From assembly GCA_034927285.1 (NCBI GenBank), contig JAYFQF010000005.1, forward strand, positions 40,229-104,228: a DNA stretch of 64,000 nucleotides, read 5' to 3'. Below are positions 15,060 through 62,689 of this stretch, one piece after another. The position numbers and the translations under genes were made by a program. Under the pieces are notes generated by a model that saw only the letters and a list, made by a program, of their open reading frames with translations, did no database searches and was not told the origin of the DNA. Origin of the DNA: Peptococcaceae bacterium. Lineage in GTDB: Bacteria; Bacillota; Peptococcia; DRI-13; UBA5745. Position 1 is the stretch's first letter; each line of letters begins with the position of its first letter.

Positions 15060-15165
15060 TCTTAGTCCGGCCCAAGTCTGGCGCCGCAGTATCGGCGCCA
15101 ACGCCAGCCGGGCATGGTTATGACGGTATCCGATCCTGAATCGTCGGACACTCCGGCTTCAGCAT

Positions 15166-15215
15166 CACCATTACCATCACCATTACCATTATTATCACCA
15201 TCATTATCGCCGCTC
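15166..15215. repeat. imperfect caccattac/catcat microsatellite
   Basis: catcaccattaccatcaccattaccattattatcaccatcattatcgcc. No frame gives a convincing ORF. Confidence 0.7.
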
Positions 15216-15242
15216 CCGGCTCCTCATGGCTGATGACCTATG

Positions 15243-15459
15243 TTTACCGGAAAATCCCTTTGTTTTTAAAGCGAATCCCGGTAAATTTCTCCCAAAGCAC
15301 TGATTTTGCCTTGACGGCAAGGGTAAGCCATAGCGTTAAGGCAAAATGGCGAGCCTTTTTCCTTTGATGGTGGAAAAAGTGAAGCAGCATCCTCCTCCCG
15401 GAGACTGTCGGGAACTTTTACCGGGATTTTCAGAAAAAACATGACGAAATCCCGGTAAA
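15243..15459. other. cluster of three strong inverted repeats, two of them built from the motif AAATCCCGGTAAA
   Basis: H1 is TTTACCGG (15243-15250) paired with CCGGTAAA (15278-15285). H2 is ATTTTGCCTT (15303-15312) paired with AAGGCAAAAT (15338-15347), with an alternative inner CCTTG/CAAGG stem. H3 is TTTACCGGGATTT (15417-15429) paired with AAATCCCGGTAAA (15447-15459), a perfect 13 bp. Confidence 0.7.
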
Positions 15460-15667
15460 CATCGCCGGAGGCCGCCGTCCTTAGCTCCTCTGGGGTCGCT
15501 TTACGGCCAAAAGCAGCCCCAAGTCCCGGCTTTTTTACCGCCCAGGGGATGCTCCAAGCAGAAAAAACGGCTTTTTGCCCTTCAATGGACAGGATAAGCA
15601 ACCCCTTGCCGGAGGCTTTTGCCTCCCCGTGGGGACTGCTCTACGAGAAAACGATTGATCTTGTACG

Positions 15668-15788
15668 GATCTTGATCTCAACGCATCCGGCTCTTGATTT
15701 CCTGCCAGCCGCGCGGCCCGCCACGGGCGGAGAATGATGATGAAATTCACGTTGCTCAGTTAATCATGAATCTTGAATCGGTTAACCC
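15668..15788. repeat. copy 3 of the dispersed ~101-bp-period intergenic repeat (B-A-b)
   Basis: 15668-15734 aligns with 62097-62163 at 52 of 67 positions by hand alignment. It includes the identical block cctgccag..gcccgccacgggcgg. A 33-nt A-like module and a restart of B (gaatcttgaatcgg) follow. Confidence 0.75.
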
Positions 15789-31960: not shown

Positions 31961-32270
31961 AAAAAAAGACCTTTTCCCTATCATGCGGAAAAGGTCAGAA
32001 TCAGCCGCTTGCGCGCGCCTGTCGGTTTACCGTCCCGCCAGAATTCCGTGGCGGACCGGCACTTCCCACCTCTTGCCGAGTCGGGTATGAATCATCAGGC
32101 AGGTCTTCTGGCTCAGGCTTCGGCGCCGGCGCTCCGTCTTCCCGTGTGTAACCACAGTGACCTTCTGGAGCGCGGCTCGGCCATTACAGCGGCGGTCCCG
32201 CGTGGGCTTCTCACCCAGCTTCCCTATTCTCGCAAGCCCAAAGGGCCTGCGCACCTGACGATGCTATATC
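31961..32270 (-). promoter_or_regulatory. cobalamin (B12) riboswitch with terminator expression platform
   Basis: The minus strand reads AATAGGGAAGCTGGGTGAGAAGCCCACGCGGGACCGCCGCTGTAATGG ... GTCACTGTGG ... GGGAAGACGG ... AGCCAGAAGACCTGCC (B12-box and core motifs). The terminator GACCTTTTCC-N10-GGAAAAGGTC + T7 lies at 31961-31996. An upstream TTGACA-17-TAAACT promoter lies at 32306-32278. Confidence 0.88.
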
Positions 32271-32350
32271 AACACTTAGTTTAGTCCCTGCCGCAGCCGG
32301 TGTCAAGAGCGGGGATTTCTTTTGGGATTTTTCTTTTTCAAGCAACTCAG

Positions 32351-36874: not shown

Positions 36875-36987
36875 GTTGTGAAAATCGAAATTAATTCCGA
36901 TTTCGAGAATGAAGGCCGCTGCCTTTATTATACAAGAAATGCAGGAATCTTCAACGACCTTAAAAAAAATGCTTCCGGAAATCGGAA
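36875..36987. promoter_or_regulatory. candidate enhancer (UAS) sites for the sigma-54 activator
   Basis: TCGAAAT-N8-ATTTCGA lies at 36875-36896. The exact 10-nt inverted pair TTCCGATTTC (36886-36895) / GAAATCGGAA (36978-36987) sits 120-230 bp upstream of the -24/-12 element. Confidence 0.4.
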
Positions 36988-38694: not shown

Positions 38695-38736
38695 AAAAAA
38701 AACGGGCGGCAGGGTTTCCCTGCCGCCTGTTTCCTT
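38695..38736. terminator. bidirectional terminator after the permease (stronger U-run on the minus strand)
   Basis: A8 - GGCGGCAGGG-ttt-CCCTGCCGCC - tgtttcctt. Confidence 0.75.
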
Positions 38737-38852
38737 ATATAATTATATCATGAATTCTGATCAGAACGCGGCGGTCTCTTTATAACGCGCCTGTCGCACG
38801 GCCCGCCACGAGAGGAAAATTATGACGTAATCCCCTGTGTTCATTATAAAAT
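38731..38852. repeat. copy 1 of the dispersed ~101-bp-period intergenic repeat ((a)-B-A)
   Basis: 38752-38819 aligns with 62097-62163 at 51 of 67 positions by hand alignment. 38820-38852 aligns with the 33-nt A module at 28 of 33. Confidence 0.75.
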
Positions 38853-38880
38853 AAGATCATGATCAGAGGAGGCGGACAAA

Positions 38881-44168: not shown

Positions 44169-45694
44169 GCGGACGCCTCCTTATCTGCGGATTTTTCCCC
44201 CAGCATCAAAAGCCCCACCTCTTCTTTGGTCACCCGGCGGGGATCCAGGATATCCATCACCCGCCCGTCATGAATGACCATCAGCCGGTCGCAGAGGGAA
44301 AGCAAAACGTCCAGGTCCTCGCCGATCAGCAGAACCGCCACGCCCCGGCCTTTTTGCTGGTTCAAAATATCATAGACGTTATATGAAGCGCCGATATCCA
44401 GCCCCCGCACCGGATAAGCCGTGATCAGCAGAGAAGGATTCAAATCAACCTCCCGGCCTAAAAGCACCTTCTGAATATTGCCGCCGGAGAGCTTACGGAG
44501 AATATGCTTTACCGAGGGAGTGGAGATATCGAAGCGCTCCACGATCTCCTGGGCCTTGGCCTGGCCGCCGGCCTTATCAATGAAAATCCCCGGGCTTTTC
44601 TGAAAGGTGCGCAGCATAACGTTGGAGATAATGTCCATTCCGCCCACCAGGCCCATGCCCAGGCGGTCTTCCGGCACAAAAGACATGCTGACGCCCTTGC
44701 GCAGGATCTCGATGGGGCTCAGGCCCAGGATTTCTTCCCCTGCCAGTTTAACGCTGCCGCCGGTGGCCTCATGGAGGCCGGCGATGGTTTCACAAATTTC
44801 CTTCTGGCCGCTGCCGGCGATTCCCGCCACTCCCAGGATCTCGCCGCCGTAGACCTGGAAGCTGGCCTCTCTCAGGGCCGGCAGGCCATGAGCTCCCATG
44901 GCCGACAGGTCTTTTACCTCCAGCACCGGCTTTTCCGACTGTTTTGCCTCGGTCCGCCGGATATTTAAATCGATGGGCCGGCCCACCATCATCTCCGTCA
45001 GCTGCTGGGCATTGGTCTCGGCGGTTTTGATGGTGCCGATATGACAGCCCCTGCGCAGGATGGTGACCCGGTCGCTGATCTCCATGACCTCATGAAGCTT
45101 GTGGGTAATGATAATAATGGCGCAGCCCTTGGACTTCATATTCCGCAGGATTTCAAAAAGCCGCTGGGTTTCCTGGGGCGTCAGCACCGCCGTAGGTTCG
45201 TCCAGGATCAGTACATTTGCGCCCCGGACCAGCATCTTCACGATCTCCACCGTCTGCTTTTCCCCTACGGACATATTATATATCTTCTCCTCCGGGTCCA
45301 GCTTCAGGCCGTAACCGTCGCAAAGCGCCTTTATTTTCCGGGAAATTTCTTTGCCCTTCAGAAAGAAGGACTTTTCATGGCCGGCGATGATATTCTCCTT
45401 GGCGGTAAAGACTTCCACCAGTTTAAAATGCTGGTGCACCATGCCGATCCCATGCCGGATGGCTTCCTTAGGCGAAGCAAAGCTCACCTCCCGGCCGCCG
45501 ATCAGGATGCTGCCGGCGTCGGGGCTGTAGATCCCTGTCAGCATGTTCATCAGGGTACTTTTTCCGGAGCCGTTTTCTCCTAAAATGGCATGAATCTCCC
45601 CCCGCTCCACAGAGAGCTGCACATCCCGGTTGGCCTGAACCTGGCCAAAACACTTGCATATGCCCTCCATCCGGACGTAAGCTTCCGAGGCCAT
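44165..45694 (-). CDS. ABC transporter ATP-binding protein, duplicated ATPase (YufO/NupO/RnsA-like)
   Basis: Trimmed to MASEAYVRMEGI at 45694. It has two NBDs (GENGSGKST; the second Walker A is degenerate, GIAGSGQ). Confidence 0.9.
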   Translation of the reverse strand: MASEAYVRMEGICKCFGQVQANRDVQLSVERGEIHAILGENGSGKSTLMNMLTGIYSPDAGSILIGGREVSFASPKEAIRHGIGMVHQHFKLVEVFTAKENIIAGHEKSFFLKGKEISRKIKALCDGYGLKLDPEEKIYNMSVGEKQTVEIVKMLVRGANVLILDEPTAVLTPQETQRLFEILRNMKSKGCAIIIITHKLHEVMEISDRVTILRRGCHIGTIKTAETNAQQLTEMMVGRPIDLNIRRTEAKQSEKPVLEVKDLSAMGAHGLPALREASFQVYGGEILGVAGIAGSGQKEICETIAGLHEATGGSVKLAGEEILGLSPIEILRKGVSMSFVPEDRLGMGLVGGMDIISNVMLRTFQKSPGIFIDKAGGQAKAQEIVERFDISTPSVKHILRKLSGGNIQKVLLGREVDLNPSLLITAYPVRGLDIGASYNVYDILNQQKGRGVAVLLIGEDLDVLLSLCDRLMVIHDGRVMDILDPRRVTKEEVGLLMLGEKSADKEASA

Positions 45695-52123: not shown

Positions 52124-52199
52124 TGGTGGGCGGTGACGGGATCGAACCGCCGACATCTTGCTTGTAAGGCAAGCGCTCTCCCAGCTGAGCTAACCGCCC
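52124..52199 (-). tRNA. tRNA-Val (anticodon UAC)
   Basis: The minus strand reads GGGCGGTTAGCTCAGCTGGGAGAGCGCTTGCCTTACAAGCAAGATGTCGGCGGTTCGATCCCGTCACCGCCCACCA. It folds as a cloverleaf with anticodon loop CTTACAA and an encoded CCA. Confidence 0.93.
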
Positions 52200-52208
52200 G
52201 GGACCAAA

Positions 52209-52284
52209 TGGTGAGCCATCCGCGACTCGAACGCGGGACACCCTGATTAAAAGTCAGGTGCTCTGCCAACTGAGCTAATGGCTC
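52209..52284 (-). tRNA. tRNA-Lys (anticodon UUU)
   Basis: The minus strand reads GAGCCATTAGCTCAGTTGGCAGAGCACCTGACTTTTAATCAGGGTGTCCCGCGTTCGAGTCGCGGATGGCTCACCA, with anticodon loop CTTTTAA and an encoded CCA. Confidence 0.93.
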
Positions 52285-61396: not shown

Positions 61397-61990
61397 CTAG
61401 TGAAATCCGCAGGAATGCTCAGGATCCACCAATTCCCTGTACTTATCCACCACCAGCTTGACGTCTTCCCAGACCGGGGCCTTCAAGCCGGGATTTCTTA
61501 ACAGTGCCGCCGGATGATAGGTGGGCATCAGCAGCCTGCCCTGCCATTGAATCCATTGGCCCCGGCTGGCGCTGATTTTGGCTTTAGGATCAACCAAGCC
61601 CTGCAGCGCCGTAGCCCCCAGCAAAAGAATGATCCTGGGATCCGCCAGCTGAATCTGCTCCAGCAGATAGGGCAGGCAAGCCTCCCGTTCCTCCGGCAGC
61701 GGCACCCGATTCTGGGGCGGCCGGCATTTTACAATATTCGCAACATAGGTATTGGTCTGCCGGCTGAAGCCGCCGGATTCCAGAATCAGATCCAGAAGCT
61801 TGCCTGCCCGCCCCACAAAAGGGCGGCCCAGCCGGTCCTCATCCTGGCCCGGGCCTTCGCCGATGACCATTAAGCCTTTATTGGGAATCCCTTCGCCAAA
61901 AACAACTTTCAGGCAGCCCTGCCGCAGGGCGCATTTATGGCAGGCCTCGGCCTGCCGGCGAAGCTCTTCTAAATTCTCTGCCGCATTCAT
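61397..61990 (-). CDS. uracil-DNA glycosylase, family 4
   Basis: CHKCALRQGC, GEGPGQDEDRLGRPFVGRAGKLLD, NIVKCRPPQNR and HPAALLRNP. Confidence 0.92.
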   Translation of the reverse strand: MNAAENLEELRRQAEACHKCALRQGCLKVVFGEGIPNKGLMVIGEGPGQDEDRLGRPFVGRAGKLLDLILESGGFSRQTNTYVANIVKCRPPQNRVPLPEEREACLPYLLEQIQLADPRIILLLGATALQGLVDPKAKISASRGQWIQWQGRLLMPTYHPAALLRNPGLKAPVWEDVKLVVDKYRELVDPEHSCGFH

Positions 61991-62063
61991 TCTGCTTCCT
62001 CATTTCCCGGGAAATAGATTACGGGCCTGTCCATACAGGCCGGCTCCCTGCTCTTATCTTGGG

Positions 62064-62197
62064 TTATGACGTAATTCGCTGCGTTCATTATATCATGAAT
62101 TCTGATTGGAACGCGGCCCGCTCTTTACTTCCTGCCAGTCGCACAGCCCGCCACGGGCGGTGATTTATGATGTAATTCGCTGCGTTCATTATATCAT
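62064..62197. repeat. copy 2 (best preserved) of the dispersed ~101-bp-period intergenic repeat (A-B-A)
   Basis: The 33-nt ttatgaCgtaattcgctgcgttcattatatcat (62064-62096) recurs at 62165-62197 with a single C>T change. A 68-nt B segment lies between them. Confidence 0.9.
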
Positions 62198-62218
62198 AAC
62201 TTGACGCTTCAGGTACAG

Positions 62219-62255
62219 AAAAGCCACAGGATGCGTAAATATCCTGTGGCTTTTA
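62219..62255. terminator. bidirectional terminator downstream of the bactofilin gene
   Basis: AAAGCCACAGGAT-gcgtaaat-ATCCTGTGGCTTTT. Confidence 0.8.
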
Positions 62256-62299
62256 TTCCTTATCTCTGTTCTTCTTTGGCTTAACGGCGCGGGGCCTCT

Positions 62300-62689
62300 T
62301 CAGACCACGAGCTTAACCTCTTCTTTTTTCAGGGTATTTAATGTACGGCAACTGCCTACCAGTTCGGAGCCCGGCTCTGTAATCAGGTTGGACATGGTGG
62401 AATTCCCGATCAGCTTCGCCGTCCGGCTCAGCTCGATACGGCCCTCGGCCATGACGTCGCCTTTCAGATACCCGCAATGATAGAGGTTTCTGGCTGTAAC
62501 ATTTCCGGTGCAGGAAGCGCCTTCCCCGATATAAACATCCCCCGGCGTTACGATGTCGCCGATCAGCTCACCGTCGATGCGTACGCTGTTGGGCGCTTTC
62601 AGGTTTCCTTCGAAATGGCTCTCCGGGCCCAGAATCGTCCCTACCTTATCCAGCTCGGCAGTCTGTTTTTGGTTGGGATTATTCGCCAT
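62300..62689 (-). CDS. bactofilin family polymer-forming cytoskeletal protein
   Basis: A beta-helical repeat pattern, FEGNLKAPNSVRIDGELIGDIVTPGDVYIGEGASCTGNVTARNLYHCGYLKGDV. Confidence 0.88.
   Translation of the reverse strand: MANNPNQKQTAELDKVGTILGPESHFEGNLKAPNSVRIDGELIGDIVTPGDVYIGEGASCTGNVTARNLYHCGYLKGDVMAEGRIELSRTAKLIGNSTMSNLITEPGSELVGSCRTLNTLKKEEVKLVV

What the first reader, a model, noticed from the sequence alone, without database searches (positions are those of the whole stretch)
62064..62197. Dispersed intergenic repeat family with ~101-bp period (A-B-A), best copy
A 33-nt module A (62064-62096) recurs 101 bp later (62165-62197) with one substitution. The two copies bracket a 68-nt module B.

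The same A and B modules occur at two other intergenic sites in this window:
- 38731-38852
- 15668-15788

All three are in the same orientation. B is about three-quarters identical between copies by my hand alignment, and all share the block gtcgcac.gcccgccacg.

The element is not protein coding. Small ATG frames starting at atgaattctgat end at different places in each copy. It is also unlike a CRISPR repeat-spacer unit, because the 'spacer' itself is conserved.

The reverse complement of A reads TGATATAAT, an extended -10. The forward strand gives ATGACG-17-TATA(T/A)(C/A). A may therefore be a portable bidirectional promoter module. Here it sits about 95 nt upstream of the UDG gene start on the minus strand.

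I cannot match it to any repeat, MITE or RNA family I know.
Basis: seen in the sequence. Interest (0 to 1): 0.62.

Follow-up and report, generated by a model that had tools for sequence, protein, structure and literature searches.

The report
Low-copy intergenic repeat carrying promoter-like boxes
A roughly 135-base non-coding repeat sits between genes at three places in this window (and a fourth elsewhere) in one uncultured Peptococcaceae species; it matches no catalogued element and most likely acts as a re-used promoter cassette, so it is a real but fairly ordinary kind of bacterial repeat.

Summary
A 33-nt module A occurs at 62064-62096 and 62165-62197, 101 bp apart with one substitution, around a 68-nt GC-rich module B. 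Related copies lie at about 38730-38864 and 15641-15779, all on the + strand. A fourth copy lies between divergent genes on a fermentation-metagenome contig, probably from the same species.

The 113-nt cores are 64-87% identical. They are not coding, match no Rfam family, plasmid, phage or viral contig, and show no RNA covariation.

A is an imperfect palindrome (TTATGAYRTAAT-N11-ATTAYRTCATAA). Its right arm on the minus strand reads TGATATAAT. This consensus extended -10 occurs nowhere else in the 64 kb.

Related species (UDG 83-86% and SdaA 82% identical) lack the element at the orthologous sites. At site 3 it sits where relatives have three extra genes and the native UDG promoter. At site 2 it fills all the space available for an sdaA promoter.

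Only about 4-6 copies seem to exist, and I found no inverted ends, target duplication or transposase.

Best reading: a lineage-restricted, low-copy "putative mobile promoter"-type repeat. The promoter role is inferred, not shown. This is a new member of a known kind, of modest interest.

The parts
62064..62096 (+). Site 3, module A1. It is an imperfect palindrome: TTATGACGTAAT - tcgctgcgttc - ATTATATCAT(GA).
62097..62164 (+). Site 3, module B. It is 68 nt and 62% G+C, and contains the only run invariant in all four copies (GCCCGCCACG, 62146-62155). It also holds a 5-bp hairpin, CCGCC-ACG-GGCGG.
62165..62199 (+). Site 3, module A2. It matches A1 at 33 of 35 positions. Its arms TTATGATGTAAT / ATTATATCATAA are complementary at 11 of 12 positions.
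62087..62095 (-). TGATATAAT, a consensus extended -10 on the minus strand within A1, pointing at the UDG gene (ATG at 61990). The transcription start is predicted at about 62079-62081, giving a leader of about 90 nt.
   Evidence: the promoter function is inferred
62188..62196 (-). Second TGATATAAT, within A2 and 101 bp upstream of the first. If active, the two form a tandem promoter pair.
   Evidence: inferred
38730..38864 (+). Site 2 copy: the last ~13 nt of a left A, then B, then a full right A (38820-38852). On its left it abuts the terminator 38705-38727. It ends 29 nt before the sdaA start codon (38881).
38742..38750 (-). TGATATAAT of the truncated left A at site 2. It faces straight into the terminator at 38727-38705.
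38822..38850 (+). Forward promoter candidate ATGACG-17-TATAAA inside the right A of site 2. It is the only candidate promoter between the terminator and the sdaA ribosome-binding site (GAGGAGG, 38866-38872).
   Evidence: inferred
15641..15779 (+). Site 1 copy, the most diverged: a degenerate left A, then B, then a right A (15735-15767), then about 16 nt resembling the start of another B. It lies in an 850-nt gene-poor gap.

Best explanation
This is a low-copy (probably 4-6 copies), lineage-restricted, non-coding intergenic repeat of about 113-135 bp. It belongs to the kind called 'putative mobile promoters': the same upstream sequence re-used in front of unrelated genes.

**Anatomy.** The unit is one or two AT-rich 33-35-bp palindromic A modules around a GC-rich 68-bp B module.

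**Proposed mechanism (inferred).** The right arm of each A, read on the minus strand, is TGATATAAT. Promoters with this extended -10 are known to be used by the housekeeping sigma factor without a -35 box.
- At site 3, and at the pdxK-like gene on L012, it would drive the gene to the left. At site 3 it would do so as a tandem pair 101 bp apart.
- On the plus strand a weaker ATGACG-17-TATAWM in the right A would drive the gene to the right (sdaA at site 2).
- B has no assigned role. It may be a passenger or an upstream binding site.

**Spread.** How the copies spread is not shown. I found no inverted ends, target-site duplication or transposase. Recombinational copying, or mobilisation in trans, is assumed. 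The two A copies can also recombine with each other, which would explain the concerted evolution at site 3 and a possible solo-A allele.
For: **The repeat is real and not coding.**

**A fourth copy** (87% identical to site 3) lies between divergent genes on L012. Its A1 is about 50-80 nt upstream of a pyridoxal-kinase-like gene.

**The flanking genes are functionally unrelated**: UDG, serine dehydratase, a pyridoxal/HMP kinase, a DHHW protein and a pentapeptide protein.

**TGNTATAAT occurs three times in 64 kb, always inside the element**. Five of the seven right-arm boxes keep TGATATAAT exactly, and a sixth keeps TATAAT.

**Relatives lack the element.**
- Species with UDG 86% and 83% identical have no copy in about 20 kb each. 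There, three extra genes and a native TGTTATAAT promoter precede the conserved TATTTCCCGGGAAATGAGG leader. In the window those are gone and the element is in their place.
- A relative with the same transporter-sdaA-ybaK-DAGK gene order has a 146-nt spacer without the element. The window has 304 nt.

**At site 2 the element fills all the space for a promoter.** It occupies everything between the upstream terminator and the sdaA ribosome-binding site.

**At site 3** a strong terminator (15-bp stem) separates the element from the upstream bactofilin gene.

**Low copy number.**
- A pattern matching all four copies found only sites 2, 3 and L012 among 241 million metagenome records.
- It found nothing real in 185,579 species genomes.

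**Closest concept and its criteria:** PMC3488235.
Against: - No transcription data exist, so promoter activity is inferred from the sequence alone.
- The consensus promoter scan finds no two-hexamer sigma-70 site in the element on either strand.
- The forward -10 (TATATC/TATAAA) lacks the conserved final T.
- At site 2 the perfect minus-strand TGATATAAT points straight into a terminator. At site 1 the boxes are degenerate and no gene follows. The promoter therefore cannot be useful at every copy.
- Conservation of TGATATAAT is not clearly beyond what the overall 74-96% identity to consensus would give.
- The 68-nt B module and its invariant GCCCGCCACG are not explained by a promoter role.
- Nothing shows mobility as such. 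The intergenic regions of relatives are too diverged to define an empty site base by base.
Confidence: 0.5

Rival explanations
1. It is a decaying relic of a non-autonomous mobile element, such as a MITE, or a mini-element of the IS200/IS605 type whose two ends carry similar hairpins in direct orientation. It would have no present function, and any promoter activity would be incidental.
For: - The copies are 64-87% identical, with ragged and truncated left ends.
- They are intergenic and lie next to terminators at three of four sites.
- They are absent from relatives.
- Each A is a hairpin-forming palindrome and the two are in direct orientation.
- The outermost 12-bp arms of A-B-A are inverted repeats of each other at 10 of 12 positions.
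Against: - No consistent target-site duplication is seen at the two complete copies.
- There is no transposase or recombinase gene among the window's mostly housekeeping genes.
- The copy number is very low.
- Rfam has no hit, including none for IS605-associated RNA motifs.
- Plasmids, phages and viral contigs give nothing.
- The stems are AT-rich with 11-nt loops, unlike typical REP or IS200/IS605 hairpins (from my own knowledge).
Confidence: 0.2
2. It is an array of binding sites for a dedicated DNA-binding protein, either a regulator or a site-specific recombinase. Four 10-bp boxes (ATGAYRTAAT) are arranged > N11 < ... > N11 <, with the two pairs 101 bp apart. This would allow looping, or excision of the 101-bp unit.
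For: - The dyad symmetry of A and the box arrangement are regular.
- The two A copies at site 3 are 33/35 identical, against 24/35 for the two A copies on L012, so they evolved in concert at site 3.
- One Logan contig (L010) joins the right flank to a single A and then to the left flank. This is what a deletion between the two A copies would leave.
Against: - The box occurs nowhere outside the element in the window or in about 130 kb of related loci. There is therefore no wider regulon.
- The whole 113 nt is conserved by descent, not just the boxes.
- There is no candidate protein nearby.
- The L010 junction may be an assembly collapse of a 101-bp loop in a strain whose two A copies are identical.
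Confidence: 0.15
3. It is a small-RNA or cis-acting RNA family. One option is a ~140-nt minus-strand transcript started at the right-hand TGATATAAT. Another is a ~65-nt plus-strand RNA consisting of B, ending at the CCGCC-ACG-GGCGG hairpin followed by UGAUUUAU.
For: - The plus strand of A-B-A folds better than shuffles (z = -3.5).
- At site 2 a strong terminator with its T-run on the minus strand directly follows the element.
- A terminator-like hairpin is flagged at the end of B at site 3.
Against: - There is no Rfam match.
- RNAalifold on either strand gives a positive (unfavourable) covariation term. Only one compensatory pair is seen, and it lies in the A palindrome.
- The minus strand folds no better than shuffles (z = -0.5).
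- The hairpin at the end of B is broken at site 2 and lacks a U-tail at site 1.
- Termination signals are not conserved between copies.
Confidence: 0.1

Closest known systems
Putative mobile promoters (PMPs; Matus-Garcia, Nijveen & van Passel 2012, Nucleic Acids Res 40:10032, PMC3488235)
   Same: - Homologous non-coding stretches of at least 50 nt and about 80% identity lie just upstream of non-homologous genes.
- Families are small (mostly 2-4 members).
- Most match no IS element or riboswitch.
- The suggested role is promoter re-use.
   Different: - PMPs are an operational class, not a sequence family, and no shared sequence is implied.
- Here the copies face their neighbouring genes in both orientations.
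- Two of the four copies (site 1, and the left side of site 2) have no gene to drive.
- The unit has an internal 101-bp direct repeat.
Promoter-carrying MITEs and small dispersed repeats (Neisseria Correia elements, pneumococcal BOX/RUP, enterobacterial ERIC) - compared from my own knowledge
   Same: - Size is about 100-150 bp and location is intergenic.
- The build is modular (BOX is boxA-boxB-boxC).
- They can form hairpins.
- They can supply outward promoters (Correia elements do).
   Different: - Those families have tens to hundreds of copies. They also have defined terminal inverted repeats and, for Correia elements, a TA target duplication.
- Here only about four copies are known, the long repeats are direct, and no target duplication is seen.
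REP/REPIN elements and IS200/IS605-derived mini-elements (PATEs) - compared from my own knowledge
   Same: - Short imperfect palindromes occur in pairs in intergenic DNA.
- IS200/IS605 ends carry similar hairpins in direct orientation, without inverted ends or target duplication.
   Different: - No RAYT or TnpA gene is seen.
- The stems are AT-rich with 11-nt loops.
- Copy number is very low.
- No conserved flanking tetranucleotide is seen.
CRISPR repeat-spacer unit
   Same: A 33-nt partly palindromic repeat occurs twice.
   Different: - The 68-nt 'spacer' is too long and is conserved between loci.
- There are only two repeats per locus.
- There are no cas genes in the window.

Membership tests
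Putative mobile promoters (operational class, PMC3488235) | Alignment of at least 50 nt at 80% identity or more between copies within one genome | tested here: met
   Site 3 vs L012 is 87% identical over 113 nt, and site 3 vs site 2 is 80% (79.6%) over 113 nt. The pairs that include site 1 are below the threshold (64-73%).
Putative mobile promoters (operational class, PMC3488235) | Copies lie within about 150 nt upstream of the start codons of non-homologous genes | tested here: met
   - Site 3 lies 74-209 nt upstream of UDG (minus strand).
- On L012, A1 lies about 50-80 nt upstream of a Phos_pyr_kin gene (minus strand).
- Site 2 ends 29 nt upstream of sdaA (plus strand).
- The gene families are unrelated.
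- Site 1 has no recognisable downstream gene.
Putative mobile promoters (operational class, PMC3488235) | The sequence actually acts as a promoter | not testable with these tools
   Only motif evidence is available: TGATATAAT and ATGACG-17-TATAWM. No transcript data were accessible.
MITE | Terminal inverted repeats | tested here: inconclusive
   The long repeats (A) are direct. Because A is itself palindromic, the outermost 12 nt of A-B-A (TTATGACGTAAT / ATTATATCATAA) are inverted repeats at 10 of 12 positions.
MITE | Target-site duplication | tested here: not met
   There is no consistent duplication at the two complete copies. L012 has AAAT on both sides, but site 3 has no equivalent at the same boundaries.
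MITE | A related autonomous element with a transposase | not testable with these tools
   None is seen in the window's gene list.
CRISPR array | Identical repeats separated by unique spacers of about 30-40 nt, usually three or more units, often with cas genes | tested here: not met
   There are two repeats per locus. The 68-nt interval is 64-87% conserved between loci. No cas genes appear in the ORF list.
Any Rfam 15 RNA family | Covariance-model score at or above the gathering threshold | tested here: not met
   - The whole window at gathering thresholds gave only a cobalamin riboswitch and two tRNAs.
- Permissive scans of all three sites gave only sub-threshold hits, mostly to the flanking terminators.
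REP/REPIN (RAYT-mobilised) | Many copies of a 20-40-nt palindrome, doublets in inverted orientation, and a RAYT gene flanked by the palindromes | tested here: not met
   - The doublets are direct.
- Only seven A modules are known.
- The 10-bp box is absent elsewhere in the window and in about 130 kb of loci.
- RAYT presence could not be tested genome-wide.
Invertible promoter switch (inverton) | A segment flanked by inverted repeats and found in both orientations in a population | tested here: not met
   Inverted repeats do flank B (ATTATATCATGAAT / ATTTATGATGTAAT). However, all six independent assemblies of site 3 and all three of site 2 show the same orientation. Read-level data were not available.

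The most novel reading that the evidence does not exclude
The A module is the recognition site of a dedicated protein: two 10-12-bp inverted arms around an 11-bp spacer, built like a recombinase core site. On this reading the 101-bp unit (B plus one A) is gained and lost by recombination between the two A copies (A-B-A <-> solo A). That would switch the number and spacing of extended -10 promoters in front of housekeeping genes. It would be a miniature copy-number phase switch rather than a passive repeat.
Probability: 0.07. Interest if true: 0.6.

Novelty: new member of a known kind. Interest (0 to 1): 0.3.

Why it matters
If the promoter role is right, this is a clean natural example of promoter replacement. 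At the UDG operon, a three-gene block and the ancestral promoter were lost and a repeat carrying a perfect extended -10 sits in their place. The same cassette precedes unrelated genes (sdaA and a pyridoxal-kinase-like gene).

It would add an example from an uncultured Peptococcaceae lineage to the little-studied class of re-used promoters. It also flags a repeat that can break short-read assemblies at these loci.

It does not open a long-standing question. Small lineage-specific intergenic repeats are common.

Tried and rejected
1. **Known RNA family.** Rfam at gathering and at permissive thresholds on all three sites gave nothing relevant.
2. **Structured RNA.** RNAalifold on both strands of four copies gave no covariation support.
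3. **Coding.** The six-frame translations differ in their stops, and nearly every nucleotide change alters the residue.
4. **Spurious-ORF trick to find more copies.** I searched the 5.8-billion-protein set with an alignment of the translated element.
5. **Genome, metagenome and viral pattern scans.**
   - The pattern was GCCCGCCACGNGNGGNNANTNATGA.
   - Hits were same-species contigs plus chance matches in Actinokineospora and two soil contigs.
6. **Plasmid and phage BLAST.** No real match.
7. **Regular ~23-kb spacing (23,085 and 23,345 bp).** I tested this by walking 8.5 kb left and 8 kb right of the window. There is no copy at the left-hand predicted position, about 7.5 kb before the window start. 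The right-hand one, about 21 kb past the window end, was out of reach. I treat the spacing as coincidence.
8. **A as a regulon operator.** The box is absent outside the element.
9. **A as a descendant of the native UDG promoter of relatives.** The similarity is at noise level (E = 87).
10. **Known operator consensus sequences recalled from memory** (Fur/Zur/PerR, ArgR/AhrC, CodY, FNR/CprK dehalobox, Spo0A box, sporulation and ECF sigma motifs). None fits across the copies.
11. **Within-species presence/absence at site 1.** Four exact-protein look-ups found nothing on record.

Full report

Yes.
- The 33-mer TTATGACGTAATTCGCTGCGTTCATTATATCAT is at 62064-62096. It recurs at 62165-62197 with a single C-to-T change. 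None of 100 shuffles of the window gave even one match.
- The two copies are 101 bp apart and enclose a 68-nt segment, B.
- The repeat finder independently reports a three-member, 113-nt family at 15657-15769, 38742-38854 and 62087-62199.
- An nhmmer profile built from the copies recovers 62064-62205, 38730-38864 and 15641-15779, with E-values of 7e-45 to 2e-38. It finds nothing else significant in the 64 kb. All three copies are on the + strand.
- Ungapped identity between the 113-nt cores is 64-80% within the window.

Two details need correcting.
- The block gtcgcac.gcccgccacg is not common to all copies. Only GCCCGCCACG is invariant.
- The copies differ in how complete they are. Site 3 is a full A-B-A. 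Site 2 keeps only the last ~13 nt of the left A. Site 1 has a degenerate left A and then runs ~16 nt into a further B-like start.

**2. Anatomy**

- A is AT-rich (33% G+C) and B is GC-rich (62%).
Twelve-bp arms TTATGAYRTAAT and ATTAYRTCATAA flank an 11-nt spacer. In A2 of site 3 the arms are complementary at 11 of 12 positions.
- A-B-A therefore carries four copies of a 10-bp box in the order > < ... > <.
- The right arm read on the minus strand is TGATATAAT, a consensus extended -10. TGNTATAAT occurs only three times in the window, always inside this element.
- Across all seven known A modules, five keep TGATATAAT exactly and a sixth keeps TATAAT.
- On the plus strand, A reads ATGACG-17-TATATC (TATAAA at site 2). 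This is a much poorer match, and the two-hexamer scan does not report it.
- The element is not coding. The short ATG frame gives 22 aa at site 3 and 11 aa at site 2, and site 1 has no start codon. No other frame is conserved.

**3. Source and wider search**

- The window comes from an uncultured 'Peptococcaceae bacterium' MAG (name attached to the identical UDG and SdaA proteins).
- It is a housekeeping, origin-proximal region. The parA-parB genes lie about 10 kb beyond the window end, and rpsF-ssb-rpsR-dnaB lie inside it.
- I scanned with a pattern that matches all copies (19 specified bases across the B-A junction).
  - In 185,579 species genomes it found only chance hits in Actinokineospora.
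  - It found nothing in viral contigs.
  - In 241 million metagenome records it found seven contigs. Four are sites 2 and 3 of the same species at 99.1-99.9% identity. Two are chance matches.
- The seventh contig, L012, is a fourth locus.
  - It carries a complete A-B-A that is 87% identical to site 3.
  - It lies between a minus-strand pyridoxal/HMP-kinase-family gene and a plus-strand gene.
  - It comes from the same fermentation study, at the same ~2x coverage as the same-species contigs, so it is probably the same genome.
- Three assemblies together returned site 2 twice, site 3 twice and L012 once. The family is therefore small, probably 4-6 copies.
- BLAST against plasmids and phages found nothing real.
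- Rfam found nothing at gathering thresholds, and only sub-threshold hits, mostly to the flanking terminators, at permissive thresholds.

**4. Comparison with relatives**

- Two related species, with UDG 86% and 83% identical, have no copy anywhere in about 20 kb around UDG.
- In both, bactofilin and UDG are separated by three extra genes on the opposite strand: a PrsW-family protease and two unknowns.
- In both, UDG has its own extended -10 (TGTTATAAT) just upstream of a conserved leader, TATTTCCCGGGAAATGAGG.
- In the window the three genes are absent and so is that native promoter. Between the bactofilin terminator (62219-62254) and the conserved leader there is instead the A-B-A element. 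Its left-hand TGATATAAT lies about 100 nt upstream of the UDG start codon.
- At site 2, a relative with SdaA 82% identical and the same transporter-sdaA-ybaK-DAGK order has a 146-nt spacer without the element. The window has 304 nt. The spacers are too diverged to align base by base.
- More distant relatives have sdaA in another context and also lack the element.
- The 10-bp box is found nowhere in about 130 kb of these loci. The element is thus restricted, as far as can be seen, to this species.

**5. What it most probably does**

The flanking genes are functionally unrelated. The whole 113 nt is conserved by descent, not just a short box. This is therefore a repeated piece of DNA, not a set of regulon operators. 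Its contexts point to promoter function at some copies.
- **Site 3.** A strong terminator isolates UDG from bactofilin. The ancestral promoter is gone. The only good -10 is the element's.
- **Site 2.** The element occupies everything between the upstream terminator (38705-38727) and the sdaA ribosome-binding site. Any sdaA promoter must therefore lie inside it, and the candidate is ATGACG-17-TATAAA at 38822-38850.
- **L012.** The element lies between divergent genes.

It is established knowledge that TGnTATAAT promoters can work without a -35 box and are common in Firmicutes. That these boxes fire is inference.

Other evidence counts against a universal role.
- At site 2 the perfect minus-strand box faces straight into a terminator.
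- At site 1 the boxes have decayed and no recognisable gene follows.
- Conservation of the box is not clearly above the background identity of 74-96% to consensus.

B remains unexplained.

**6. Dynamics**

- The two A copies of site 3 are 33/35 identical. The two A copies on L012 are 24/35 identical. Corresponding A copies at the two loci are 28-31/35 identical. Site 3 has therefore undergone gene conversion or a recent re-duplication.
- One Logan contig (L010, SRR26328488) reads right flank - one A - left flank, which lacks the 101-bp unit. This could be a genuine deletion allele. It could equally be a collapsed 101-bp loop in a strain whose two A copies are identical. Reads are needed to decide.
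- Other strains carry the element at the same sites, with a few substitutions.

**7. Rivals**

- **Mobile-element relic.** Supported by the ragged ends, the decay and the absence from relatives. Against it are the missing target duplication, the lack of a transposase and the low copy number.
- **Protein-binding or recombination site array.** Supported by the dyad symmetry and the concerted evolution. There is no wider regulon and no candidate protein.
- **Small RNA.**
  - The plus strand folds with z = -3.5, but this comes from the A palindromes pairing.
  - The minus strand folds with z = -0.5.
  - There is no covariation.
  - Terminators are not conserved between copies.
- **CRISPR, invertons and REPINs** each fail a defining feature (see the membership table).

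**8. Verdict**

- It is a real, previously uncatalogued, low-copy, species-restricted intergenic repeat.
- It is best filed with the operational class of 'putative mobile promoters' (PMC3488235). It meets that class's length, identity and position criteria for three of the four copies.
- It is a new member of a known kind, with an untested but context-supported promoter role. Interest is modest.

Noticed in passing
window 62002-62015 (also 45333-45346 with one mismatch): ATTTCCCGGGAAAT is the exact 14-bp core of the Bacillus subtilis Noc-binding site. It sits 12 nt upstream of the UDG start codon and is conserved in both related species (ATATTTCCCGGGAAATGAGG). The region is origin-proximal, with parA-parB about 10 kb away. 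It may be a nucleoid-occlusion or ParB-family binding site embedded in a 5' leader.
   Followed up: partly
window 61990-62300, against L019 7402-10001 and L023 2371-4819: Relatives carry three extra genes between bactofilin and UDG, on the opposite strand: a PrsW-family protease and two unknowns of about 211 and 300 aa. These are missing from the window and from 16 kb of adjoining sequence. The repeat element sits exactly at this indel junction.
   Followed up: yes
L010 1-60 (Logan SRR26328488), equivalent to window 62064-62208: This contig joins the right flank to a single A and then to the left flank, so it lacks the 101-bp B+A unit. It is either a real deletion allele or an assembly collapse.
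   Followed up: partly
L004, L006 and L008 contig ends, equivalent to window 62115: Three Logan assemblies from unrelated runs all break at the same base, 19 nt into module B. No shared 30-mer with the other copies explains it. The cause is unknown; it could be local heterogeneity or a coverage dropout.
   Followed up: no
window 15657, 38742 and 62087: The three copies are spaced 23,085 and 23,345 bp apart, in the same orientation. No copy was found at the left-hand predicted position, about 7.5 kb before the window start. The right-hand one, about 21 kb past the window end, lies beyond the 8 kb I could read. I treat the even spacing as coincidence.
   Followed up: yes
window 15060-15640: About 600 nt to the left of site 1 has no Pfam-recognisable gene. 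It includes a short CCATTA/CCATCA-type repeat run at about 15165-15210. The 111-aa ORF at 15266-15601 has no family match. This may be a decayed gene.
   Followed up: partly
window 38705-38727: The terminator abutting site 2 has its long T-run on the minus strand (CGTTTTTTTT). It is better oriented to stop a transcript leaving the element leftwards than to terminate the plus-strand transporter gene upstream.
   Followed up: no
window 36905-36935: There is a weak A-like sequence (GAATGAAGGCCGCTGCCTTTATTATACAAG) in a divergent intergenic region. It is not significant (nhmmer E = 3.6) and is probably just a promoter-like AT-rich stretch.
   Followed up: partly
window 32081-32273 (-), 52127-52199 (-) and 52212-52284 (-): These are a cobalamin riboswitch (111.9 bits), upstream of a putative cobalt ECF transporter cluster, and two adjacent tRNA genes.
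   Followed up: no
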